Assembly (NCBI RefSeq): GCF_988242995.1 | Contig: NZ_OZ547043.1 | Length of the DNA: 64,000 nt | Reading direction: 5' to 3' (one strand) | In this document: one piece after another, positions 1,821 through 59,771 of the stretch | Position numbering within the stretch: position 1 is the stretch's first letter | How the letters are laid out: each line of letters opens with the position of its first letter | The notes under the pieces: model-generated | Told to the model about the DNA's origin: nothing | Databases searched by the model: none | The model's input: the letters and a program-made list of their open reading frames with translations, nothing else | Made by a program: the position numbers and the translations under genes

Positions 1821-4687
<2,867 letters not shown>

Positions 4688-5236
4688 TTATCGTTCATGA
4701 GAAGCATAACGTAAAGGGAAAAGCTCGATTAGACGGCAGGATTTGTCAGGGGTTATGAACGAAATTCATAAATCTGCTTAAGTGTTGCGATGAGTCGTGC
4801 AAGTTCGATATCCCTGCAATTCACAGTCTGATGAAGGAAAATGAATATCCATAAAAAATATATCGGTTTATCCTGGCGTATATACCTACTTCGACGTATT
4901 TCCAATAGTTGTTAATTAAAGGCAGGCCATTATTATTCACTCTGAATAATGAATTATTCACTGTCCGCAGAGTAAAAATATAACTTAGGTATCTATTTAA
5001 TAACTTGCACAAAAAGCTAAATTTTTACCCATAAATAAAAATATAATCCCGCGCCCAACCACCTGATGAGTGGCTACAGACACTGGATATATTAGGTGGC
5101 GGTGTACTTTCTTACATAAAGGTATTTCCTTTTCTGCGGAAAAGGAAATCGGGGATTTCCCGGTTTTTCTGACAAGCAGACGCCACTATTTGTGTCTGCC
5201 TATGTTCGTTAATTCGTTCATCAGGAAATTATCTCA

Positions 5237-8200
5237 ATGTCACGTTATAAAACAGGTCATAAACAACCACGATTTCGTTATTCAGTTCTGGCCCGCTGCG
5301 TGGCGTGGGCAAATATCTCTGTTCAGGTTCTTTTCCCACTCGCTGTCACCTTTACCCCAGTAATGGCGGCACGCGCGCAGCATGCGGTTCAGCCACGGTT
5401 GAGCATGGAAAATACTACGGTAGCTGCTGATAATAATGTGGAAAAAAATGTCGCGTCGTTTGCCGCAAATGCCGGGACATTTTTAAGCAGTCAGCCAGAT
5501 AGCGATGCGACACGTAACTTTATTACCGGAATGGCCACAGCTAAAGCTAACCAGGAAATACAGGAGTGGCTCGGGAAATATGGTACTGCGCGCGTCAAAC
5601 TGAATGTCGATAAAGATTTCTCGCTGAAGGATTCTTCGATGGAAATGCTTTATCCGATTTATGATACGCCGACAAATATGTTGTTCACTCAGGGGGCAAT
5701 ACATCGTACCGACGAGCGTACTCAGTCAAATATTGGTTTTGGCTGGCGTCATTTTTCAGAAAATGACTGGATGGCGGGGGTGAATACTTTTATCGATCAT
5801 GATTTATCCCGTAGTCATACCCGCATTGGTGTTGGTGCGGAATACTGGCGTGATTATTTGAAACTGAGCGCCAATGGTTATATCCGGGCTTCTGGCTGGA
5901 AAAAATCGCCGGATGTTGAGGATTATCAGGAACGCCCGGCGAATGGCTGGGATATTCGTGCTGAGGGCTATTTACCCGCCTGGCCGCAGCTTGGCGCAAG
6001 CCTGATGTATGAACAGTATTATGGCGATGAAGTCGGGCTGTTTGGTAAAGATAAACGCCAGAAAGATCCACATGCGATTACCGCTGAAGTGAATTACACG
6101 CCAGTGCCTCTTCTGACCCTGAGTGCTGGGCATAAGCAGGGCAAGAGTGGTGAGAATGACACTCGCTTTGGCCTGGAAGTTAATTATCGGATTGGCGAAC
6201 CTCTGGAAAAACAACTCGATACAGACAGCATTCGCGAGCGTCGAATGCTGGCAGGCAGCCGCTATGACCTGGTTGAGCGTAATAACAATATCGTTCTTGA
6301 GTATCGCAAATCTGAAGTGATCCGTATTGCTCTGCCTGAGCGTATTGAAGGCAAGGGCGGCCAGACGGTTTCCCTGGGGCTTGTGGTCAGCAAAGCAACT
6401 CACGGTCTGAAAAATGTGCAATGGGAAGCGCCGTCTTTGCTGGCCGCAGGCGGAAAAATTACGGGGCAGGGCAATCAGTGGCAAGTGACGCTCCCGGCTT
6501 ATCAGGCAGGCAAAGACAATTATTATGCGGTTTCAGCGATTGCCTACGATAACAAAGGCAATGCCTCGAAACGTGTGCAGACAGAAGTGGTTATTAGCGG
6601 AGCTGGTATGAGCGCCGATCGTACGGCGTTAACGCTTGACGGTCAGAGCCGTATTCAAATGCTTGCTAACGGTAATGAGCAAAAGCCGCTGGTGCTGTCT
6701 CTGCGCGACGCCGAGGGTCAGCCAGTCACGGGCATGAAAGATCAGATCAAGACTGAACTAACTTTCAAACCGGCTGGAAATATTGTGACTCGTTCTCTGA
6801 AGGCCACTAAATCACAGGCAAAGCCAACACTGGGTGAGTTCACCGAAACTGAAGCAGGGGTGTATCAGTCTGTCTTTACTACCGGAACGCAGTCAGGTGA
6901 GGCAACGATTACTGTTAGCGTTGATGACATGAGCAAAACTGTCACTGCAGAACTGCGGGCCACGATGATGGATGTGGCAAACTCCACCCTGAGCGCTAAC
7001 GAGCCGTCAGGTGATGTGGTTGCTGATGGTCAGCAAGCCTACACGCTGACACTGACAGCGGTGGACTCCGAGGGTAATCCGGTGACGGGAGAAGCCAGCC
7101 GCCTGCGACTTGTTCCGCAAGACACTAATGGTGTAACCGTTGGTGCCATTTCGGAAATAAAACCAGGGGTTTACAGCGCCACGGTTTCTTCGACCCGTGC
7201 CGGAAACGTTGTTGTGCGTGCCTTCAGCGAGCAGTATCAGCTGGGCACATTACAACAAACGCTGAAGTTTGTTGCAGGGCCGCTTGATGCAGCACATTCG
7301 TCCATCACCCTGAATCCTGATAAACCGGTGGTTGGCGGTACAGTTACGGCAATCTGGACGGCAAAAGATGCCTATGACAACCCTGTGACCAGCCTCACGC
7401 CGGAAGCGCCGTCATTAGCGGGGGCTGCGGCTGTAGGTTCTACAGCATCTGGCTGGACAAATAATGGTGATGGGACGTGGACTGCGCAGATTACTCTCGG
7501 CTCTACGGCGGGTGAATTAGAAGTTATGCCGAAGCTAAATGGACAGGATGCGGCAGCAAACGCGGCAAAAGTAACCGTGGTGGCTGATGCGTTATCTTCA
7601 AACCAGTCGAAAGTCTCTGTCGTAAAAGATCACGTAAAAGCCGGCGAAAGCACAACCGTGACGCTGGTGGCGAAAGATGCGCATGGCAACGCTATCAGTG
7701 GTCTTTCGTTGTCGGCAAGTTTGACGGGGACCGCCTCTGAAGGGGCGACTATTTCCAGTTGGACCGAAAAAGGTGACGGTTCCTATGTTGCTACGTTGAC
7801 TACAGGCGGAAAGACGGGCGAGCTTCGCGTCATGCCTCTCTTCAATGGCCAGCCAGCAGCCACCGAAGCCGCGCAGTTGACGGTCATCGCTGGAGAGATG
7901 TCATCAGCTAACTCTACGCTTGTTGCGGACAATAAGGCTCCGGTCGTCAAAACGACGACGGAACTCACCTTCACCGTGAAGGATGCGTACGGGAACCCGG
8001 TCACCGGGCTGAAGCCAGATGCACCAGTGTTTAGCGGTGCCGCCAGCACGGGGAGTGAGCGTCCTTCAGCAGGAAACTGGACAGAGAAAGGTAATGGGGT
8101 CTACGTGTCGACCTTAACGCTGGGATCTGCCGCGGGTCAGTTGTCTGTGATGCCACGCGTGAACGGCCTAAATGCCGTTGCTCAGCCACTGGTGCTGAAT

Positions 8201-9490
8201 GTTGCAGGCGACGCTTCCCGGGCAGTGATCAGTGATATGGCGGTGAAGGTGAATAACCAACTGGCAAATGGACAGTCTGCTAACCAGATAACCCTGACCG
8301 TCGTGGACAGCTATGGTAACCCGTTGCAGGGGCAAGAAGTTACGCTGACTTTACCGCAGGGTGTGACCAGCAAGACGGGGAATACGGTAACAACCAATAC
8401 GGCAGGTAAAGCTGACATTGAGCTGATGTCAACGGTTGCCGGGGAACTTGAGATCGAGGCCGCGGTGAAAAACTCTCAGAAGACGGTCACGGTGAAATTC
8501 AACGCGGATGCCAGCACCGGTCAGGCGAGCCTGGAGGTAGACGCCGCTGCTCAAAAAGTGGCAAACGGCAAAGATGCCTTTACGCTGACGGCGACCGTTG
8601 AGGATAAAAACGGTAACCCTGTTCCAGGCACTCTGGTGACCTTTAATCTGCCCCGAGGTGTCAAGCCGCTTACTGGCGATAATGTCTGGGTGAAAGCCAA
8701 CGATGAGGGGAAAGCAGAGTTGCAGGTGGTTTCCGTGACTGCCGGAACCTATGAGATCACGGCGTCGGCAGGAAATGACCAGCCTTCGGATGCGCAGACT
8801 ATAACGTTTGTGGCCGATAAGGCGACCGCAACCGTCTCCGGTATTGAGGTGATTGGCAACTATGCACTGGCGGATGGCAAAGCCAAACAGACGTATAAAG
8901 TTACGGTGACTGATGCCAATAACAACCTGTTGAAAGATAGCGAGGTGACGCTGACTGCCAGCCCGGCAAATTTAGCTCTGGATCCCGATGGGACGGCGAA
9001 AACTAATGAGCAAGGGCAGGCTATTTTCACCGCCACGACCACTGTCGCAGCGAAATATACACTCACGGCGAAAGTGGAACAGGCCAACGGTCAGGAATCG
9101 ACGAAAACTGCTGAATCTAAATTCGTCGCGGATGATAAAAACGCGGTGCTCGCCGCATCATCTGATGTGCAATCGCTGGTGGCGGATGGGAAATCGACTG
9201 CGAAGCTGGAGGTGACCCTGATGTCGGCAAATAACCCCGTTGGCGGAAATATGTGGGTCGACATTCAGACGCCGGAAGGGGTGACGGAGAAGGATTATCA
9301 GTTCCTGCCGTCGAAAAATGACCATTTCGTGAGCGGAAAAATCACGCGTACATTTAGTACCAACAAGCCAGGTGTCTATACGTTCACATTTAACGCCCTG
9401 ACGTATGGCGGGTACGAAATGAAGCCAGTGACGGTGACCATAACCGCGGTGGATGCCGATACGGCAAAGGGCGAGGTGGCGATGAAATAA
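5237..9490 (+). CDS. eaeH: intimin/invasin-family inverse-autotransporter adhesin with repeated bacterial Ig-like (Big) domains (EaeH/FdeC), full length
   Basis: 1417-aa uninterrupted ORF; N-terminal beta-barrel region followed by about ten ~100-aa repeats carrying T(L)T..VDSYGNPV.G-type Big_1 motifs. Confidence 0.85.
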   Translation: MSRYKTGHKQPRFRYSVLARCVAWANISVQVLFPLAVTFTPVMAARAQHAVQPRLSMENTTVAADNNVEKNVASFAANAGTFLSSQPDSDATRNFITGMATAKANQEIQEWLGKYGTARVKLNVDKDFSLKDSSMEMLYPIYDTPTNMLFTQGAIHRTDERTQSNIGFGWRHFSENDWMAGVNTFIDHDLSRSHTRIGVGAEYWRDYLKLSANGYIRASGWKKSPDVEDYQERPANGWDIRAEGYLPAWPQLGASLMYEQYYGDEVGLFGKDKRQKDPHAITAEVNYTPVPLLTLSAGHKQGKSGENDTRFGLEVNYRIGEPLEKQLDTDSIRERRMLAGSRYDLVERNNNIVLEYRKSEVIRIALPERIEGKGGQTVSLGLVVSKATHGLKNVQWEAPSLLAAGGKITGQGNQWQVTLPAYQAGKDNYYAVSAIAYDNKGNASKRVQTEVVISGAGMSADRTALTLDGQSRIQMLANGNEQKPLVLSLRDAEGQPVTGMKDQIKTELTFKPAGNIVTRSLKATKSQAKPTLGEFTETEAGVYQSVFTTGTQSGEATITVSVDDMSKTVTAELRATMMDVANSTLSANEPSGDVVADGQQAYTLTLTAVDSEGNPVTGEASRLRLVPQDTNGVTVGAISEIKPGVYSATVSSTRAGNVVVRAFSEQYQLGTLQQTLKFVAGPLDAAHSSITLNPDKPVVGGTVTAIWTAKDAYDNPVTSLTPEAPSLAGAAAVGSTASGWTNNGDGTWTAQITLGSTAGELEVMPKLNGQDAAANAAKVTVVADALSSNQSKVSVVKDHVKAGESTTVTLVAKDAHGNAISGLSLSASLTGTASEGATISSWTEKGDGSYVATLTTGGKTGELRVMPLFNGQPAATEAAQLTVIAGEMSSANSTLVADNKAPVVKTTTELTFTVKDAYGNPVTGLKPDAPVFSGAASTGSERPSAGNWTEKGNGVYVSTLTLGSAAGQLSVMPRVNGLNAVAQPLVLNVAGDASRAVISDMAVKVNNQLANGQSANQITLTVVDSYGNPLQGQEVTLTLPQGVTSKTGNTVTTNTAGKADIELMSTVAGELEIEAAVKNSQKTVTVKFNADASTGQASLEVDAAAQKVANGKDAFTLTATVEDKNGNPVPGTLVTFNLPRGVKPLTGDNVWVKANDEGKAELQVVSVTAGTYEITASAGNDQPSDAQTITFVADKATATVSGIEVIGNYALADGKAKQTYKVTVTDANNNLLKDSEVTLTASPANLALDPDGTAKTNEQGQAIFTATTTVAAKYTLTAKVEQANGQESTKTAESKFVADDKNAVLAASSDVQSLVADGKSTAKLEVTLMSANNPVGGNMWVDIQTPEGVTEKDYQFLPSKNDHFVSGKITRTFSTNKPGVYTFTFNALTYGGYEMKPVTVTITAVDADTAKGEVAMK

Positions 9491-9523
9491 TATTAAGAAT
9501 ATGAAAGTAACATTCTAATAAAC

Positions 9524-9556
9524 AATAATGGCGTTGACATCTTCAACGCCATTATT
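9524..9556. terminator. 14-bp perfect inverted repeat between convergent eaeH and ykgA; likely bidirectional terminator
   Basis: aataatggcgttga-catct-tcaacgccattatt, T-rich on both flanks. Confidence 0.45.
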
Positions 9557-9610
9557 TATTGAATTGCCTGACAGTAGTCTCGTTATATATTCATTTAGAT
9601 ATAGCGACAA

Positions 9611-10516
9611 CTAAACCGGACGAACGGGGATAAAAATTTCGCAAACAATGTTATTGCTATCAATTTCGACGAAATTTTCATTGTAATAAAACCGCTCAAT
9701 ATCACTGCCGTTCACTCTGGCTAACCCCCTGGCAGGTAATTCCATCAGATAGAGGTTTCGCGCCCATTCAGGGTAGTGCTCCCACTCACCTTCATAGCGG
9801 AAAGAGGCATACAGTCCTCGGTTAATTGTCCACTCTTTCGACATCTCTGAATCGGTTTGTTTGCATACCGTACCGGCAAAAGTTTCAACTGTGAGCAAAT
9901 CGACCGATTTTGTTGACGGTTCGAATGTGGAGACGAAATAGATATCCGTCTTAAAACTCTTCATACATCTGGCTAAATGATGACGTCGCAGTTTGACTTC
10001 TTCATCCGGTGATTTATTCGACACTTCAATGTCATATTTAAATGAATCGCCAAAAATAGGTGTCTCAGGAAAGTTGACTAATTTACACTCCGTCTTTTGC
10101 TGTTGACGTATTAAAAAAGAAGGGAAGATATTTGCGAGATCCCAATAATCACGGTGGCGGTATTCACGGGGAGAGCAGCCGAATAACTTTTTAAATTCGC
10201 GGCTGAATGACTGCTGTGAATCAAAATGCAAAGAGAGTGCAATATCAAGCATAGATTTCGCGGTGAGCCGGACAAGAATGGCGGCACGACAAAGCCTTCG
10301 TTTGCGAATGTATTCTCCCAAAGGCACATGCATGAAATTTCGGAACAGAAGCTGGATGTTGCGTCTGCTGTAGCCAGATTTCTGTGCGATATCTTCGATT
10401 GAAATAGGGTGTTCGAGATTGCACTCAATCCACTCCAGGAGCTGCTGTAGAATCTTCTGCCTGATCATCACATTCTCCGTTAATTCTTTGTCATATCGCA
10501 CATTTTCGTTATGCAC
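9611..10516 (-). CDS. ykgA: AraC-family regulator with C-terminal GyrI-like effector domain (Rob-like architecture)
   Basis: 301-aa ORF; AraC HTH signatures (IEDIAQKSGYSRRNIQLLFRNF..., SQQSFSREFKKLFGCSPREYR). Start may be the internal MIRQKIL. Gene name from recalled K-12 neighbourhood. Confidence 0.65.
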   Translation of the reverse strand: MHNENVRYDKELTENVMIRQKILQQLLEWIECNLEHPISIEDIAQKSGYSRRNIQLLFRNFMHVPLGEYIRKRRLCRAAILVRLTAKSMLDIALSLHFDSQQSFSREFKKLFGCSPREYRHRDYWDLANIFPSFLIRQQQKTECKLVNFPETPIFGDSFKYDIEVSNKSPDEEVKLRRHHLARCMKSFKTDIYFVSTFEPSTKSVDLLTVETFAGTVCKQTDSEMSKEWTINRGLYASFRYEGEWEHYPEWARNLYLMELPARGLARVNGSDIERFYYNENFVEIDSNNIVCEIFIPVRPV

Positions 10517-10716
10517 TGGGCCCTAAGTGTATCAAAAACAGCAAGGGCGAAGGCAAAAGCACTGGTAGCGTCTGCTTCGTTGTCCCCTAAAATAGAGAGG
10601 TTTCAGTCCTACATTATTAATGAATTTTTTGCATAAGTGATATCAAAATCCACATACTAATTTGAGGTTACGTTTTAACGTAGACTCATTGTTCATGCCT
10701 AATGGAGGGACTGACA

Positions 10717-11586
10717 GTGGAATTTTCCGTATTAAGTAACAATCTGAAAATGCCGATGATGGGATTTGGTGTTTTTCAGGTTACCGATAAAAACGTGTGC
10801 AAACAGTCAGTGTTGAACGCTATCCGCACGGGTTATCGACTCATCGACACTGCAGCGGTATACGGTAATGAAGATGCCGTCGGTGAAGCCGTTCGTGAAG
10901 CTATATCTGAAGGTTTATGTACCCGAGATGAGTTATTTATAACGTCTAAATTGTGGGTGCAGGATATGTTGAATCAGGATACGGCAAAAGCAGGTATTGA
11001 AGCGTCATTAAAAAAATCGGAACTAGAATACTTCGACCTCTATTTATTGCACCAGGCTATGCGCGATTATTTCAGTGCGTGGCGTGCACTCGAAGATGCC
11101 TATGAAGAGGGCAAATTAAAAGCAATTGGGGTTTCCAATTTCTATCCTCATGTTCTGGCGAACTTTTGTGAAACGGTAAGAGTTAAACCGATGGTCAACC
11201 AGGTCGAGTTGCATCCCTATTTTGCCCAACCAGAGGCGCTGGCAACCATGAAGTATTATAACGTGCAGCCTGAAGCATGGGCTCCGTTAGGTGGTGGACG
11301 ACATAAACCCTTTGAAAATAATCTGCTTCAGAGTATTGCAGATGCCCATCAAAAATCGATTTCTCAGGTCATTCTGCGTTGGAATATTCAACGGGGAGTG
11401 GTCGTTATTCCGAAATCGACACATCAACAGCGTATCGAAGAAAATTTTGCTATCTGGGATTTCTCACTGACAGAGAAAGAAATGGCACAAATTAGCTCGC
11501 TTGATTTGGGTTATGTTGGGGAGTCGGTAAAACATTTTAATCCTGAATTTGTTCGTGGTTGTCTTGCTGTAAAAATACATGATTGA
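10717..11586 (+). CDS. aldo-keto reductase (DkgA-like)
   Basis: ORF 10702..11586; GGAGGG at 10704-10709 then in-frame GTG at 10717; MPMMGFGVFQ...[14 protein letters not shown]...IGVSNF motifs. Confidence 0.7.
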   Translation: MEFSVLSNNLKMPMMGFGVFQVTDKNVCKQSVLNAIRTGYRLIDTAAVYGNEDAVGEAVREAISEGLCTRDELFITSKLWVQDMLNQDTAKAGIEASLKKSELEYFDLYLLHQAMRDYFSAWRALEDAYEEGKLKAIGVSNFYPHVLANFCETVRVKPMVNQVELHPYFAQPEALATMKYYNVQPEAWAPLGGGRHKPFENNLLQSIADAHQKSISQVILRWNIQRGVVVIPKSTHQQRIEENFAIWDFSLTEKEMAQISSLDLGYVGESVKHFNPEFVRGCLAVKIHD

Positions 11587-11745
11587 TATTAATCATGTAT
11601 TTTACCTGAGACGACAAGAATCTTTTAACAGGGGAGTGATATTGATCTTCACTCTGTCATGTCTCCGGTAATATGGCGTCAGGCTTCATCATCAGAAAGG
11701 GGGCCTGACGCCTGCAAAAGTGAACAACAGACAGTGTTCGGATTA

Positions 11746-12339
11746 TCAATATTCAGTTTTTAGCGTTGAACTGGATTCATTACTGCGTTGTTTAAGAATT
11801 TCCCGCGCCGAATCTGCCATTATCATGACAGCACCTGCCAGCATCAGAGTATCTTTCAATACCAGGCGACCAGCACCGGATAAATAAGGGAAACCATGAT
11901 GAGCGTCACCCAATGCGGGTACCCATGCCTCCGGGGTGGTGATTAAAAATGAGAGTGTTACCAACGGTGTGGTAAATGCCATCAGCCCTCCCAATAAACC
12001 TAACCAGCGATTGACAGGATTAGCCAAAACCAGCAGAGCAATAATCACCTCCACGACGCCAAGACCGTTGGAAAAACCATAGGTATTATTGGCCGATTGC
12101 CATGCCCTTGCTTCTGGTTTGTATTCGCCTTCGTGAGTCAGATACTGTTTATAGTCTTCCGGGTGTTCATAAAAGAACGACATTAGTGGACTGTTTGCGA
12201 CGAATGGTGTAATGCTGTCTGCCTCGTAAGGGACAAACTTTAATAACCCAATCCACATAAAAACAATCGCAATACTCAGACGAATCAATGTCAGGCCAAT
12301 TTTATCTCCCCGACTTAACAGGTGCAGGTATTTCTCCAT
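11746..12339 (-). CDS. rclC: inner-membrane protein of the reactive-chlorine resistance operon
   Basis: ORF 11746..12348; start set to MEKYLHLLSRG; multiple hydrophobic segments; position matches recalled K-12 rclC/ykgB. Confidence 0.8.
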   Translation of the reverse strand: MEKYLHLLSRGDKIGLTLIRLSIAIVFMWIGLLKFVPYEADSITPFVANSPLMSFFYEHPEDYKQYLTHEGEYKPEARAWQSANNTYGFSNGLGVVEVIIALLVLANPVNRWLGLLGGLMAFTTPLVTLSFLITTPEAWVPALGDAHHGFPYLSGAGRLVLKDTLMLAGAVMIMADSAREILKQRSNESSSTLKTEY

Positions 12340-12350
12340 TGTAAACATCC

Positions 12351-12587
12351 TTATTTATACAATACTGCTGTTGCGGTTGAATTATTATCAATTCGCATCG
12401 ATGTGACTTTCCAGGATGAAGCATTATATTTTCTAGCCATATCAGCAATGGCATCCTCAAGAACTGTCGGTGATGCTGATACTGACGAGACGCTGATATG
12501 TTTCAGAATTATTTTATCATCTGCATTGGTGGAAAATGCCATAACGCCAGATAATAGTGTTGCAAATAAAACAGGTTTTTTAAACAT
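12351..12587 (-). CDS. rclB: small periplasmic DUF1471-type protein
   Basis: ORF 12351..12602; signal peptide MFKKPVLFATLLSGVMAFSTNA; start set to MFKKP. Confidence 0.7.
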   Translation of the reverse strand: MFKKPVLFATLLSGVMAFSTNADDKIILKHISVSSVSASPTVLEDAIADMARKYNASSWKVTSMRIDNNSTATAVLYK

Positions 12588-25399: not shown

Positions 25400-25412
25400 T
25401 TGTTATTGCATA

Positions 25413-25449
25413 AAACCGCGCCATGTCTGCATATGGCGCGGTTTCTCTT
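25413..25449 (+). terminator. rho-independent terminator downstream of betT
   Basis: aaaccgcgccat-(8 nt loop)-atggcgcggttt followed by tctctt. Confidence 0.45.
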
Positions 25450-26275
25450 ACCTCTTGATACGTTATATCTGTGTACAGTTAAGCCCTTAGTATCGATTGA
25501 TGATTGCCAGGCAACAGATAATAAAAAAGAAAAGAACTATTGAAGCCCAAAACCTACGCTTGGACTGTTGTGAATGTTCAATAAGCTTAGTCTTATTTAA
25601 TGTAAATATTGGTGCTAATTTGAAATGACGCTTTATTCATGGGAAACGCGTAGCGCAAATCAACTAAAATCAATGTAACTGTTTGTTGTTTAAGGTTTAA
25701 TTGTCTGTGTCTGATATTTTATTGATTGTTTTAAATATTGTTTTTATTGTCATTGTTATAATGTTGGCTATCTATTGCTGAATGGATTCAGCCTTAAAAA
25801 GCAGGTTGTTAAGGGATAGGCATAGAGTAATGACGTGTATGCATAACCAACATCTTTACTCATTATGTCATTGAATGTTGACGCTATGTGTTTATGAGGT
25901 TGAGGTATTTTCAGTTGATCTGGATTGTTAAATTCATATAATGCGCCTTTACTCATGAATGGGCGTCAATACGTAGTGGGAAATTATAAATATTGAAATA
26001 GTCCAACTACTTCTTTATTACCAAAAATGAGTATCTGAATTTTAATATTGCATTCTTGCGTGATTATCTCCTGAGTTTGACTTGTGATTACCTTTTTAAG
26101 GTATTTAGCGTAACTGTTTTTGAGCGAGCATCAGAGGTAAAGATAATCTTTTTGATAGTGATGTGGGATGTTATGCGTATGGCATCGCTGATGTTTATGG
26201 TTACCCCTTATGTGTGCTCAGGAATCCACAGGTAATCACTCATACTGAACAGCGATAAAAGATAAAGGTGTGTTC

Positions 26276-57858: not shown

Positions 57859-58181
57859 CAGCCATGCGCAACCATCAAAAGACGTTCACGATGCTGCTGG
57901 TTCTGGTGCTGATTGGTCTTAATATGCGACCACTGCTCACCTCCGTCGGGCCACTGCTACCGCAATTGCGCCAGGCAAGCGGAATGAGCTTTAGCGTGGC
58001 TGCCCTGTTGACCGCTCTGCCGGTGGTTACCATGGGCGGGCTGGCGCTGGCCGGAAGCTGGCTTCATCAGCATGTCAGCGAACGTCGCAGCGTCGCCATC
58101 AGTTTGTTACTGATTGCCGTCGGTGCATTGATGCGTGAGCTTTACCCCCAAAGTGCGCTGCTGCTTAGCAGCGCACTGCTT

Positions 58182-58893
58182 GTGCACAGAAAACCCCCAG
58201 CTAGGCTGGGGGTTCCGGAAAGCTTTCAGCTTTGAGCCAGTTATTAAAACCCCTTTTGATTTGTTAAAACACCTTGCGGTCTGGCAACTGCAAGTGTCAA
58301 ACAAGAAATCAAAAGGGGGTCCCAATGGGGAACGAAAAGAGCTTAGCGCACACCCGATGGAACTGTAAATATCACATAGTTTTTGCGCCAAAATACCGAA
58401 GACAGGTGTTCTACAGAGAGAAGCGTAGAGCAATAGGCAGTATTTTGAGAAAGCTGTGTGAGTGGAAAAGCGTACGGATTCTGGAAGCTGAATGCTGTGC
58501 AGATCATATCCATATGCTTGTGGAGATCCCGCCCAAAATGAGCGTATCCGGGTTTATGGGATATCTGAAAGGGAAAAGCAGTCTGATGCTTTACGAGCAG
58601 TTTGGTGATTTGAAATTCAAATACAGGAACAGGGAGTTCTGGTGCAGAGGGTACTACGTCGATACAGTGGGTAAGAACACGGCGAAGATACAGGATTACA
58701 TAAAGCACCAGCTTGAAGAGGATAAAATGGGAGAGCAGTTATCGATTCCCTATCCGGGCAGCCCGTTTACGGGCCGTAAGTAACGAAGTTGGATGCAAAT
58801 GTCAGATCGTGTGCGCCTGTTAGGGCGCGGCTGGTAAGAGAGCCTTATAGGCGCATTTGAAAAACCTCCGGCTATGCCGGAGGATATTTATTT
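58182..58893 (+). mobile_element. IS200 (IS200/IS605 family) insertion element, ~712 bp
   Basis: Carries a 152-aa tnpA, left-end hairpin aaacccccagctaggctgggggtt and right-end hairpin cctccggctatgccggagg; precisely interrupts cynX with no evident target duplication. Confidence 0.85.
58325..58783 (+). CDS. tnpA: IS200 transposase TnpA (HUH Y1 transposase)
   Basis: ORF 58274..58783; MGNEKSLAHTRWNCKYHIVFAPKYRRQVFY...HIHMLVEIPPK (HuH motif)...YYVDTVG (catalytic Tyr region); matches recalled Salmonella IS200 TnpA. Confidence 0.9.
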   Translation: MGNEKSLAHTRWNCKYHIVFAPKYRRQVFYREKRRAIGSILRKLCEWKSVRILEAECCADHIHMLVEIPPKMSVSGFMGYLKGKSSLMLYEQFGDLKFKYRNREFWCRGYYVDTVGKNTAKIQDYIKHQLEEDKMGEQLSIPYPGSPFTGRK

Positions 58894-59771
58894 GGTGGAG
58901 TGGGGATCGGCATCATTCAGGCAGTGATGCCTTCGGTAATTAAGCGGCGGTTTCAGCACCGTACGCCACTGGTGATGGGGCTGTGGTCCGCGGCTCTGAT
59001 GGGCGGCGGTGGACTTGGTGCCGCCATTACGCCCTGGTTAGTTCAACATAGCGAAACCTGGTATCAAACACTCGCCTGGTGGGCGCTGCCTGCCGTTGTT
59101 GCGCTCTTTGCCTGGTGGTGGCAAAGCGCCCGCGAGGTCGCCTCTTCTCACAAGACAACAACCACTCCGGTTCGCGTGGTATTTACTCCCCGCGCGTGGA
59201 CGCTGGGTGTTTACTTCGGTCTGATTAACGGTGGTTACGCCAGCCTGATTGCCTGGTTACCCGCTTTCTATATTGAGATTGGTGCCAGCGCGCAGTACAG
59301 CGGTTCCTTGCTGGCATTGATGACGCTTGGGCAAGCAGCAGGGGCATTGCTGATGCCTGCTATGGCTCGCCATCAGGATCGGCGCAAACTTTTGATGCTG
59401 GCGCTGGCGTTACAACTGGTGGGGTTCTGCGGCTTTATCTGGCTGCCGCTGCAATTGCCGGTATTGTGGGCAATGGTGTGTGGGTTAGGTCTGGGCGGCG
59501 CATTTCCGCTCTGTTTGCTGCTGGCGCTCGATCACTCTGCGCAACCCGCTATTGCTGGCAAACTGGTGGCGTTTATGCAGGGGATCGGTTTTATCATCGC
59601 CGGGCTTGCCCCGTGGTTTTCTGGTGTGCTGCGTAGTATCAGTGGCAATTACTTGATGGACTGGGCGTTTCATGCGCTGTGCGTCGTTGGGCTGATGATC
59701 ATAACCCTGCGTTTTGCACCAGCACGTTTTCCGCAGCTGTGGGTCAAAGAGGCATGATGCGACGCTTGTTT

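What the first reader, a model, noticed from the sequence alone, without database searches (positions are those of the whole stretch)
5237..9490. Full-length 1417-aa intimin/invasin-type adhesin (EaeH/FdeC)
The ORF is uninterrupted and encodes an inverse-autotransporter beta-barrel followed by about ten Ig-like repeats. From memory, K-12 carries only a disrupted eaeH next to an IS3 copy, whereas intact FdeC-type adhesins are described in pathogenic E. coli, so this strain probably expresses a functional adhesin. A 564-bp AT-rich region upstream (4673-5236) suggests tight, possibly H-NS-type, regulation.
Basis: partly seen in the sequence, partly recalled or inferred. Interest (0 to 1): 0.5.

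Follow-up and report, generated by a model that had tools for sequence, protein, structure and literature searches.

The report
Intact FdeC adhesin gene of E. coli
This is an intact copy of fdeC, a well-studied surface adhesin gene that most E. coli strains carry; laboratory K-12 has lost most of it, so the finding is correct but ordinary.

Summary
Window 5237-9490 (+) is one uninterrupted 1417-codon ORF. It encodes an N-terminal inverse-autotransporter beta-barrel (Pfam IAT_beta, E 1.5e-109) followed by ten Ig-like domains, with no LysM and no C-type lectin tip.

It is the chromosomal orthologue of fdeC (eaeH):
- It is 91-98.6% identical in protein to six E. coli FdeC alleles and 94.9% identical to the crystallised FdeC fragment (PDB 4E9L).
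- It sits in the same gene neighbourhood as other fdeC copies.
- This exact protein is already in NCBI as "inverse autotransporter adhesin FdeC".

K-12 keeps only codons 1-292.

Two points need correcting. First, intact fdeC is the norm, not a pathogen marker: at least 80% of the gene's DNA is present in 4585 of 5426 complete E. coli genomes. Second, an intact ORF does not show expression. Published work reports H-NS and temperature control and silence under laboratory conditions.

The 564-bp upstream region is AT-rich (37.8% GC; core 28.6%). My sequence tests for H-NS motifs were not significant.

One small new lead: the conserved 180 nt before the start codon folds unusually well, and one hairpin shows compensatory changes. 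The gene itself is already known and of low interest.

The parts
5237..9490 (+). fdeC (eaeH) coding sequence, 1417 aa, intact
   Evidence: ORF list and translation. The orthologue is annotated 'fdeC: inverse autotransporter adhesin FdeC' in RefSeq. The exact protein is in NCBI (EFQ2925989.1 and others).
5237..5377 (+). Long N-terminal signal peptide, about aa 1-47: a basic n-region, a hydrophobic core CVAWANISVQVLFPLAVTFTPVMA, and an A-R-A motif
   Evidence: Read from the translation. The cleavage site is inferred and was not predicted with a tool.
5462..6286 (+). Inverse-autotransporter beta-barrel (translocator), aa 76-350
   Evidence: Pfam PF11924 IAT_beta, E 1.5e-109, covering the full model. 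Matches the invasin and intimin barrel structures 4E1T (E 3.4e-84) and 4E1S (E 5.6e-72). dN/dS is 0.04.
6308..6634 (+). Barrel-proximal Ig-like domain (D00-like), aa 358-466
   Evidence: Matches the intimin chain of PDB 6TQD, E 4.5e-12. Calling it D00-like is my own reading of that entry.
6656..9448 (+). Nine tandem Big_1/Invasin_D3 Ig-like domains: aa 474-572, 579-680, 684-783, 789-885, 891-985, 999-1090, 1096-1193, 1199-1298 and 1309-1404. No lectin tip.
   Evidence: Pfam. Residues 595-1008 are 393/414 identical to PDB 4E9L, FdeC region B. The four distal domains are the most variable, with 23-32% variable columns and dN/dS of 0.19-0.45.
4673..5236 (.). 564-bp intergenic region shared with the divergent aldo/keto reductase gene. 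AT-rich core at 4841-5050 (28.6% GC).
   Evidence: Composition. It is 93-97% identical and of almost the same length (single-base indels only) in 7 other E. coli, apart from the first ~14 bp, which differ in K-12-type strains (homology from 4687). A/T tracts of 5 or more occur at 10.6 per kb, against 4.0 per kb for the window.
4974..5236 (+). Conserved fdeC control region. Homology with E. marmotae and a cryptic-clade Escherichia begins here. It contains an invariant TATAAT at 5042-5047, a candidate -10 box with no mapped transcription start.
   Evidence: blastn and alignment A1. A published promoter-containing fdeC clone starts at about window 4987, judged from primer P0184 in PMC11143625.
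5051..5228 (+). Predicted structured leader. Hairpins at 5051-5105, 5106-5123, 5126-5147, 5148-5164 (followed by a U-run, terminator-like), 5176-5199 and 5203-5220. An optional pairing joins 5165-5172 to 5221-5228, which covers the AGGA ribosome-binding site.
   Evidence: Folding z-score of -4.53 on the + strand and -3.25 on the - strand. RNAalifold consensus structure. Hairpin 5176-5199 has 2 pairs with compensatory changes and 3 with one-sided compatible changes. This is a prediction only.
9524..9556 (.). 14-bp-stem palindrome between the convergent fdeC and AraC-type genes; probably a bidirectional terminator
   Evidence: Terminator-like scan hit and the sequence itself.
6113..9807 (.). The stretch that K-12 lacks, where IS3 sits instead. 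It covers fdeC codons 293-1417, the spacer, and the 3' end of the AraC-type gene.
   Evidence: K-12 locus L001 aligns to window 4687-6112 and 9808-10732. K-12 annotation shows a partial inverse-autotransporter gene followed by an IS3 transposase.
9611..10468 (-). Downstream convergent AraC/GyrI-like regulator (ykgA-type, Rob-like), intact here
   Evidence: Gene call and Pfam hits in the identical locus L003. NCBIfam RobA-like hit at 2.3e-57, below the curated cutoff.
2805..4672 (-). Two aldo/keto reductase genes (2805-3794 and 3821-4672) transcribed divergently from fdeC. They belong to the long form of the fdeC cluster and are absent in K-12-type strains.
   Evidence: K-12-type genomes lose homology to the left of window 4687.

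Best explanation
Window 5237-9490 is the intact chromosomal fdeC (eaeH) gene of an E. coli strain. It encodes a type Ve (inverse autotransporter) adhesin.

Likely mechanism, taken from the family's literature: a long signal peptide sends the protein through Sec. The N-terminal 12-stranded barrel (aa 76-350) is inserted into the outer membrane with help from BAM and TAM. The C-terminal passenger is then exported through the barrel. It forms a rod of ten Ig-like domains with no lectin tip, and it binds collagen, epithelial cells and other bacteria.

Transcription starts in the conserved roughly 260 bp upstream of the gene. An adjacent AT-rich tract probably nucleates H-NS silencing, so the protein is made only under inducing conditions such as 39 deg C or above, or host-cell contact.

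Shown here: the gene's identity, its intactness, its domain architecture, orthology and synteny, purifying selection, and the K-12 deletion. Inferred from the literature and not tested here: secretion route, ligands, H-NS binding and conditional expression.
For: - ORF: intact and 1417 aa.
- Domains: IAT_beta at E 1.5e-109, plus nine Pfam Ig domains and one barrel-proximal Ig domain that matches intimin chain 6TQD.
- Structures: the PDB FdeC fragment 4E9L matches at E 2e-245 with 393/414 identical residues.
- Annotation: the orthologous DNA is annotated fdeC in RefSeq genomes; at least 80% of the gene's DNA is present in 4585 of 5426 genomes, with one copy per genome at the median.
- Synteny: the same neighbours occur in GF60, T-HYM1 and the draft assemblies: LysR, two AKR genes, fdeC, an AraC-type gene, AKR, then rclCBA.
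- Known allele: the exact protein is recorded as FdeC on 86 contigs, and locus L003 is 100% identical to window 2237-12490.
- Similarity: protein identity to six alleles is 91.0-98.6%, with indels of at most 2 aa. This meets the >91% conservation reported by Nesta et al. 2012 (PMC3324786).
- Selection: dN/dS is 0.19 overall and 0.04 in the barrel, as expected for a working gene.
- Literature: FdeC function, structure and the K-12 pseudogene; 10 Big domains and TAM-assisted assembly; regulation by H-NS and temperature; the eaeH locus silences an inserted lac promoter in K-12.
Against: Nothing argues against the identity. Several points weaken the functional and regulatory parts:
- No expression data exist for this strain.
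- A test for the H-NS nucleation motif in the intergenic region was not significant: 2 hits, and 161 of 500 shuffles did as well.
- The sigma-70 scan found no more sites than in shuffled sequence: 7 against 5.8.
- No FdeC-specific NCBIfam model exists, and every named inverse-autotransporter model scored below its curated cutoff.
- Some strains carry frameshifted copies (O157:H7 SS TX 754-1 and KSC64), so the gene is dispensable in some lineages.
- One study found that deleting fdeC increased adhesion of an avian strain (PMC11143625). Its role as a plain adhesin therefore depends on context.
Confidence: 0.95

Rival explanations
1. The ORF is intact but is effectively a silent relic in this strain. 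It would never be expressed at useful levels, like the many H-NS-silenced cryptic adhesin genes of E. coli.
For: FdeC is not detected under standard laboratory conditions (PMC3324786 abstract; PMC11143625 discussion). The K-12 eaeH locus lies in a transcriptionally silent domain. Several lineages have lost or frameshifted the gene.
Against: Purifying selection is strong across alleles: dN/dS is 0.04 in the barrel and 0.19 overall. The leader is almost invariant. The allele circulates unchanged on 86 contigs. Published in vivo work shows expression and a colonisation phenotype in other strains.
Confidence: 0.15
2. The gene is a different inverse-autotransporter paralogue (intimin, invasin, YeeJ, IatC, SinH or YchO) rather than FdeC.
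For: It shares the barrel and Ig-repeat plan with all of these. NCBIfam hits to their models have very low E-values, for example the IatC N-terminal model at 1.7e-192 and intimin at 1.2e-114.
Against: All of those hits fall far below the curated cutoffs: IatC 642 against 2400 bits, intimin 384 against 1400, SinH 306 against 999, YchO 287 against 508. Pfam finds no LysM domain and no lectin domain. The protein is 94.9% identical to the FdeC crystal construct and sits at the fdeC chromosomal position.
Confidence: 0.01
3. In addition to H-NS silencing, fdeC is controlled after transcription starts by its conserved, structured leader of about 180 nt. This could work by attenuation at the hairpin-plus-U-run at 5148-5170, or by masking of the ribosome-binding site, and could contribute to temperature dependence.
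For: - The leader folds far better than shuffled sequence: z = -4.53 for 5055-5260 and -4.39 for 5100-5236. The AT-rich core does not (z = +1.14).
- The leader is more conserved than the coding sequence, and is 82% identical even in E. marmotae.
- Hairpin 5176-5199 keeps its pairing through compensatory G-C to A-U and C-G to U-A changes; 95% of cells are paired, against 37-53% when the partners are slid.
- In the RNAalifold consensus, UUUUCUGA pairs with UCAGGAAA, which covers the ribosome-binding site.
Against: - The opposite strand also folds well (z = -3.25), so these could be DNA palindromes bound by proteins.
- The transcription start is unknown.
- The pairs that would mask the site are invariant in chromosomal copies and partly broken in the plasmid paralogue.
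- Only about 3-4 independent lineages were compared.
- There is no Rfam match.
Confidence: 0.15

Closest known systems
FdeC of ExPEC IHE3034 (ECOK1_0290; PDB 4E9L), also called EaeH of ETEC H10407
   Same: Same gene at the same chromosomal locus. Length is 1417 aa against 1416 aa. The architecture is the same: barrel plus ten Ig domains, with no lectin domain. Identity to the crystallised region B is 393/414, and identity to six other alleles is 91-98.6%.
   Different: Allelic differences only. They are concentrated in the four membrane-distal Ig domains and the last 13 residues. This allele's leader has a different loop (GAUUU rather than AAAUC/AAAUU/AAAUA) in hairpin 5148-5164, shared with strain M11957.
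K-12 eaeH pseudogene
   Same: Same promoter region and the same first 292 codons, at 96.3% nucleotide identity over window 4687-6112.
   Different: K-12 has an IS3 copy and lacks the stretch corresponding to window 6113-9807. It also lacks the two upstream AKR genes and most of the downstream AKR gene.
Intimin (EaeA) and Yersinia invasin
   Same: The same type Ve topology and homologous barrels (4E1S at E 5.6e-72, 4E1T at E 3.4e-84), with Ig-like passenger domains.
   Different: FdeC has no LysM domain and no C-type lectin receptor-binding tip (PMC3324786). It has ten Ig domains; intimin and invasin have fewer. The intimin NCBIfam model scores 384 bits against a cutoff of 1400.
YeeJ, IatC and the other E. 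coli inverse autotransporters
   Same: A related barrel (59% identity between YeeJ and FdeC, reported in PMC5595812) and Big_1 repeats.
   Different: They sit at different loci and differ in size, and YeeJ has LysM and lectin domains. The IatC model scores 642 bits against a cutoff of 2400.
Plasmid-borne FdeC-like paralogue (for example on NZ_CP117002.1, 108 kb)
   Same: About 80% protein identity, the same length (1414-1416 aa), an AT-rich upstream region, and homologous sequence over the last ~75 nt before the start codon.
   Different: It lies on a plasmid between PerC/MarR genes and ParA. The rest of the leader is unrelated, and the ribosome-binding site reads AAGA instead of AGGA.

Membership tests
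Inverse autotransporter (type Ve secretion; intimin/invasin superfamily) | N-terminal IAT_beta (PF11924) outer-membrane barrel | tested here: met
   Pfam E 1.5e-109 at aa 76-350, model positions 3-279 of 279. Barrel structures 4E1T and 4E1S match.
Inverse autotransporter (type Ve secretion; intimin/invasin superfamily) | Passenger of IgSF (Big/Invasin_D3) domains lying C-terminal to the barrel, i.e. the inverted order | tested here: met
   Nine Pfam Ig domains at aa 474-1404 plus a barrel-proximal Ig domain at 358-466, all after the barrel.
Inverse autotransporter (type Ve secretion; intimin/invasin superfamily) | N-terminal Sec signal peptide | tested here: inconclusive
   A basic n-region, a hydrophobic core and an A-R-A motif are visible in the translation. 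No signal-peptide predictor was available.
Inverse autotransporter (type Ve secretion; intimin/invasin superfamily) | Surface display of the passenger, with BAM/TAM-dependent assembly | not testable with these tools
   Shown for CFT073 FdeC in PMC4943183. Not shown for this allele.
FdeC / EaeH orthologue group | At least ~91% protein identity to reference FdeC alleles over the full length | tested here: met
   91.0-98.6% identity to six alleles and 94.9% to the 4E9L construct. The criterion comes from PMC3324786.
FdeC / EaeH orthologue group | Chromosomal position in the fdeC cluster, between the reductase/regulator genes and rclCBA | tested here: met
   K-12 carries its remnant at the same place.
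FdeC / EaeH orthologue group | Ten Big domains, no C-type lectin tip and no LysM domain | tested here: met
   The last Ig domain ends at aa 1404 of 1417, which leaves no room for a lectin domain. The literature gives 10 Big domains and no lectin domain.
FdeC / EaeH orthologue group | Adhesion to collagen or epithelial cells, and conditional expression controlled by H-NS and temperature | not testable with these tools
   Known only from the literature. The sequence-level H-NS motif test was not significant.
Intimin (EaeA) | NCBIfam intimin_all score at or above the 1400-bit cutoff; LysM domain; C-type lectin tip that binds Tir | tested here: not met
   384 bits against a cutoff of 1400. Pfam finds no LysM and no lectin domain.
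IatC, Ilp, YrIlm, Inv, SinH and YchO named families | Score at or above the curated NCBIfam cutoff | tested here: not met
   All score below their cutoffs: 642/2400, 408/1125, 403/750, 313/710, 306/999 and 287/508 bits.

The most novel reading that the evidence does not exclude
The nearly invariant ~180-nt stretch just upstream of fdeC (window 5051-5228) may be a structured 5' leader. It would add a post-initiation control step on top of the published H-NS silencing and help explain the induction at 39-42 deg C. Candidate mechanisms are attenuation at the hairpin-plus-U-run at 5148-5170, or masking of the AGGA ribosome-binding site by UUUUCUGA. In the held literature I found no description of such an element for fdeC, and Rfam has no match.
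Probability: 0.15. Interest if true: 0.4.

Novelty: already known. Interest (0 to 1): 0.1.

Why it matters
FdeC is a broadly conserved E. coli surface antigen. It has been studied as a vaccine candidate against urinary-tract infection and as a colonisation factor. Knowing that this strain carries an intact allele is useful for annotation and typing.

It tells us nothing new about biology, however. Intact fdeC is the usual state in E. coli, and this exact allele is already in public databases. It is therefore neither a marker of pathogenicity nor evidence of expression.

Two points have some forward value. Variation is concentrated in the four distal Ig domains, which matters for antigen design. 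The conserved, well-folding leader could be tested as a second layer of temperature control.

Tried and rejected
1. H-NS nucleation motif (TCGATAAATT, recalled from memory, up to 2 mismatches) in the intergenic region. There were 2 hits, and 161 of 500 composition-matched shuffles did as well. This gives no sequence-specific support; only AT-richness and A/T tracts remain.
2. Sigma-70 promoter and terminator scans over 4500-9800 found no more sites than in shuffled sequence: 7 against 5.8, and 8 against 5.6. The invariant TATAAT at 5042-5047 is a candidate only.
3. RNA thermometer idea. The predicted probability that the ribosome-binding site is unpaired stays at about 0.5 from 25 to 45 deg C for two transcript models. 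The idea is not supported, and it depends on an unknown transcription start.
4. Rfam found nothing in 4673-5300, even at E up to 1. At gathering threshold the only hit in the whole window is STnc490.
5. NCBIfam has no model that reaches its cutoff. This was useful only for excluding the named paralogue families.
6. The Easton et al. 2014 paper on H-NS and temperature control of FdeC is not held. A search for 'FdeC' with 'hns mutant' found nothing. The H-NS evidence therefore rests on that paper's title and on how others cite it.
7. No complete RefSeq E. coli genome is more than about 98.9% identical to any part of the window. I considered that the window might not be E. coli. This was rejected, because draft E. 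coli assemblies are 100% identical over the 10 kb checked.
8. I did not run a structure prediction. Pfam coverage up to aa 1404 of 1417 already excludes a lectin tip.

Full report
**1. The observation**

The window holds one uninterrupted ORF at 5237-9490 on the + strand. It starts with ATG and encodes 1417 aa. A stop-free run of that length would occur by chance with probability about 3e-30 (my arithmetic). RefSeq places the same start and the same length on the orthologue in strain GF60.

The gene upstream (3821-4672, - strand) is transcribed divergently. Its GC content is 37.8%, against 50.5% for the window. Only 3.3% of 564-bp windows are as low, although about eleven other spots in the window are comparable. 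The AT-richness is uneven: 42.3% GC for 4673-4840, 28.6% for 4841-5050 and 44.1% for 5051-5236.

**2. What the gene is**

- Pfam finds a full-length inverse-autotransporter barrel (IAT_beta, aa 76-350, E 1.5e-109).
- Pfam also finds nine Big_1/Invasin_D3 Ig-like domains tiling aa 474-1404.
- The stretch at aa 358-466 matches the intimin chain of PDB 6TQD, which I read as the barrel-proximal Ig domain. That gives ten Ig domains, the number quoted in the literature (PMC4943183).
- There is no LysM hit. The last Ig domain ends 13 residues before the C-terminus, so there is no room for a C-type lectin tip. This agrees with Nesta et al. 2012 (PMC3324786).
- Residues 595-1008 match the crystallised FdeC fragment 4E9L at E 2e-245, with 393 of 414 residues identical.
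- NCBIfam models for intimin, IatC, Ilp, YrIlm, Inv, SinH and YchO all hit the barrel but fall far below their curated cutoffs. The protein is therefore none of those named paralogues.

**3. Orthology and population context**

- Megablast against 5426 complete E. coli genomes finds the locus in 5074 of them, once per genome at the median. At least 80% of the gene's DNA is present in 4585 genomes, and it is annotated 'fdeC: inverse autotransporter adhesin FdeC'.
- The gene order matches the published fdeC cluster: two LysR genes, two aldo/keto reductases, fdeC, an AraC/GyrI-like regulator, another reductase, then rclCBA and rclR.
- The exact 1417-aa protein is already in NCBI as FdeC and has been seen on 86 contigs. 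A draft E. coli assembly (GCA_025034035.1) is 100% identical to window 2237-12490.
- The closest complete genomes are only 98-98.9% identical across the window. This lineage is simply poorly represented among finished genomes.

**4. The K-12 comparison**

K-12 MG1655 aligns only to window 4687-6112, that is the promoter region plus codons 1-292. An IS3 transposase follows, and homology resumes at window 9808, inside the AraC-type gene. K-12 therefore lacks 3695 bp that this strain has.

K-12 and many phylogroup A/B1-type genomes also lack the two upstream reductase genes. Their homology starts at window 4687.

**5. Is the gene in working order?**

I compared six intact alleles: the window, GF60, M11957, 1916D18, an ST131 strain and LR-21-1.
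- Protein identity to the window allele is 91.0-98.6%, with indels of at most two residues.
- dN/dS is 0.19 overall, 0.04 in the barrel and 0.19-0.45 in the four distal Ig domains.
- Variable columns rise from 2.5% in the barrel to 23-32% in Ig6-Ig9.

This pattern fits a functional surface protein whose exposed tip diversifies. It does not fit a decaying gene. The gene is not universally kept, however. An O157:H7 strain and strain KSC64 carry frameshifted copies, and Goh et al. 2019 found a complete gene in 67% of 126 genomes (PMC6714894).

**6. How it most likely works**

This part is inferred from the family's literature. A Sec signal peptide is followed by barrel insertion helped by BAM and TAM. 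The Ig-domain rod is exported through the barrel. It then mediates adhesion to collagen and epithelial cells and cell-cell aggregation. None of this can be shown from sequence for this allele.

**7. Regulation**

[quoted passage not shown] 2014) is cited, but the paper itself was not retrievable. A later paper summarises it as expression detected only at 39 deg C or above, and reports induction at 42 deg C in an avian strain.

In K-12, the eaeH locus lies in a transcriptionally silent protein-occupancy domain that silences an inserted lac promoter (PMC4191405).

My own sequence tests add little. A/T tracts are 2.7-fold enriched, but the H-NS motif count is not significant, and the sigma-70 scan finds no more sites than in shuffled sequence. 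H-NS control is therefore plausible and published for other strains, but not demonstrated here. Expression of this intact gene should be assumed conditional, not constitutive.

**8. A side lead: the leader**

- The last ~200 bp before the start codon are more conserved than the coding sequence across E. coli.
- Homology with E. marmotae and a cryptic-clade Escherichia begins at window ~4974-5004, at 82% identity. The AT-rich core upstream of that point is not shared. In E. marmotae a sulfatase-family gene lies upstream instead of the reductase genes.
- A published clone of 'fdeC with promoter' begins at about window 4987.
- An invariant TATAAT sits at 5042-5047.
- The stretch 5055-5260 folds with z = -4.53, and 5100-5236 with z = -4.39, whereas 4850-5054 gives z = +1.14.
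- RNAalifold predicts a chain of hairpins. Hairpin 5176-5199 keeps its pairing through G-C to A-U and C-G to U-A double changes and three one-sided compatible changes. In that analysis, 94-95% of cells are paired, against 37-53% when the partners are slid.

Caveats are substantial. The opposite strand also folds well (z = -3.25). The transcription start is unknown. Only a few independent lineages were compared. [quoted passage not shown] Rfam has no match. I rate this a 15% possibility of a real post-initiation control element.

**9. Verdict**

The finding is correct in its observation and in its main interpretation. The gene is fdeC, which is already known. The specific allele is already deposited, and an intact copy is the common state in E. 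coli. The implied significance (pathogen-type adhesin, probably expressed) is overstated. Interest is low.

Noticed in passing
window 58183-58891 (cynX region, 57864-59757): The cyanate transporter gene cynX is split by a 709-bp IS200-family insertion. The insertion carries a 153-aa IS200/IS605 transposase (58322-58783, NF033573, E 1.9e-43). It also carries the window's only Rfam hit, STnc490 (58192-58315, 146 bits), which I take to be the IS200 leader. The cynX fragments are 57864-58235 and 58900-59757.
   Followed up: yes
L015 1501-5745 and L016 1501-5751; plasmids NZ_CP117002.1 and CP056250.1: A plasmid-borne FdeC-like paralogue, about 80% identical in protein and 1414-1416 aa long. It lies between PerC and MarR genes on one side and ParA on the other, on ~110-kb E. 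coli plasmids. More distant copies occur on E. albertii and Salmonella plasmids. Its 540-bp upstream region is also very AT-rich, and it shares only the last ~75 nt before the start codon with chromosomal fdeC.
   Followed up: partly
window 4673-4687 (left edge of the fdeC intergenic region): E. coli genomes fall into two context classes. In one, homology continues leftward into two aldo/keto reductase genes and LysR genes, as in this window and in the ST131 and O157 strains. In the other, it breaks at window 4687 and the ykgR/ykgM/ykgO side follows, as in K-12, 1916D18, LR-21-1 and KSC64.
   Followed up: partly
L005 839-5091 (O157:H7 SS TX 754-1); L010 2052-5311 (KSC64): Some complete genomes that score as carrying fdeC by DNA coverage in fact have a frameshifted copy. 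In the O157 strain the first stop is at codon 1280. KSC64 has both a deletion and a frameshift. Coverage-based prevalence therefore overestimates the number of intact genes.
   Followed up: partly
window 1-64000: No complete RefSeq E. coli genome is more than about 98.9% identical to any third of the window, yet draft assemblies are 100% identical over the 10 kb checked. The lineage seems under-represented among finished genomes.
   Followed up: no
window about 19480 and about 25400-26270: This strain lacks two islands that some strains carry nearby. One is the autotransporter gene ehaA next to betT, present in T-HYM1. The other is the hyxRAB/ipbA island next to ykgH, present in AF39. Here betT is followed directly by pdeL across a low-GC spacer with a minimum of 31.7% GC.
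   Followed up: no
L017 977-1513 and 1501-5859; proteins P0098 and P0099: More divergent FdeC forms exist. One is a 1452-aa cryptic-clade Escherichia version whose N-terminus is split by a frameshift. Another is a 1627-1630-aa form in E. coli, 67-68% identical, with 234 members recorded for P0099; its extra length suggests roughly two additional Ig domains.
   Followed up: no
window 5148-5164: The window and strain M11957 share three substitutions that change the loop of a conserved CGGG/CCCG hairpin from AAAUC, AAAUU or AAAUA to GAUUU. In these two strains the changes also extend the possible stem to GGAAAUC/GAUUUCC.
   Followed up: partly
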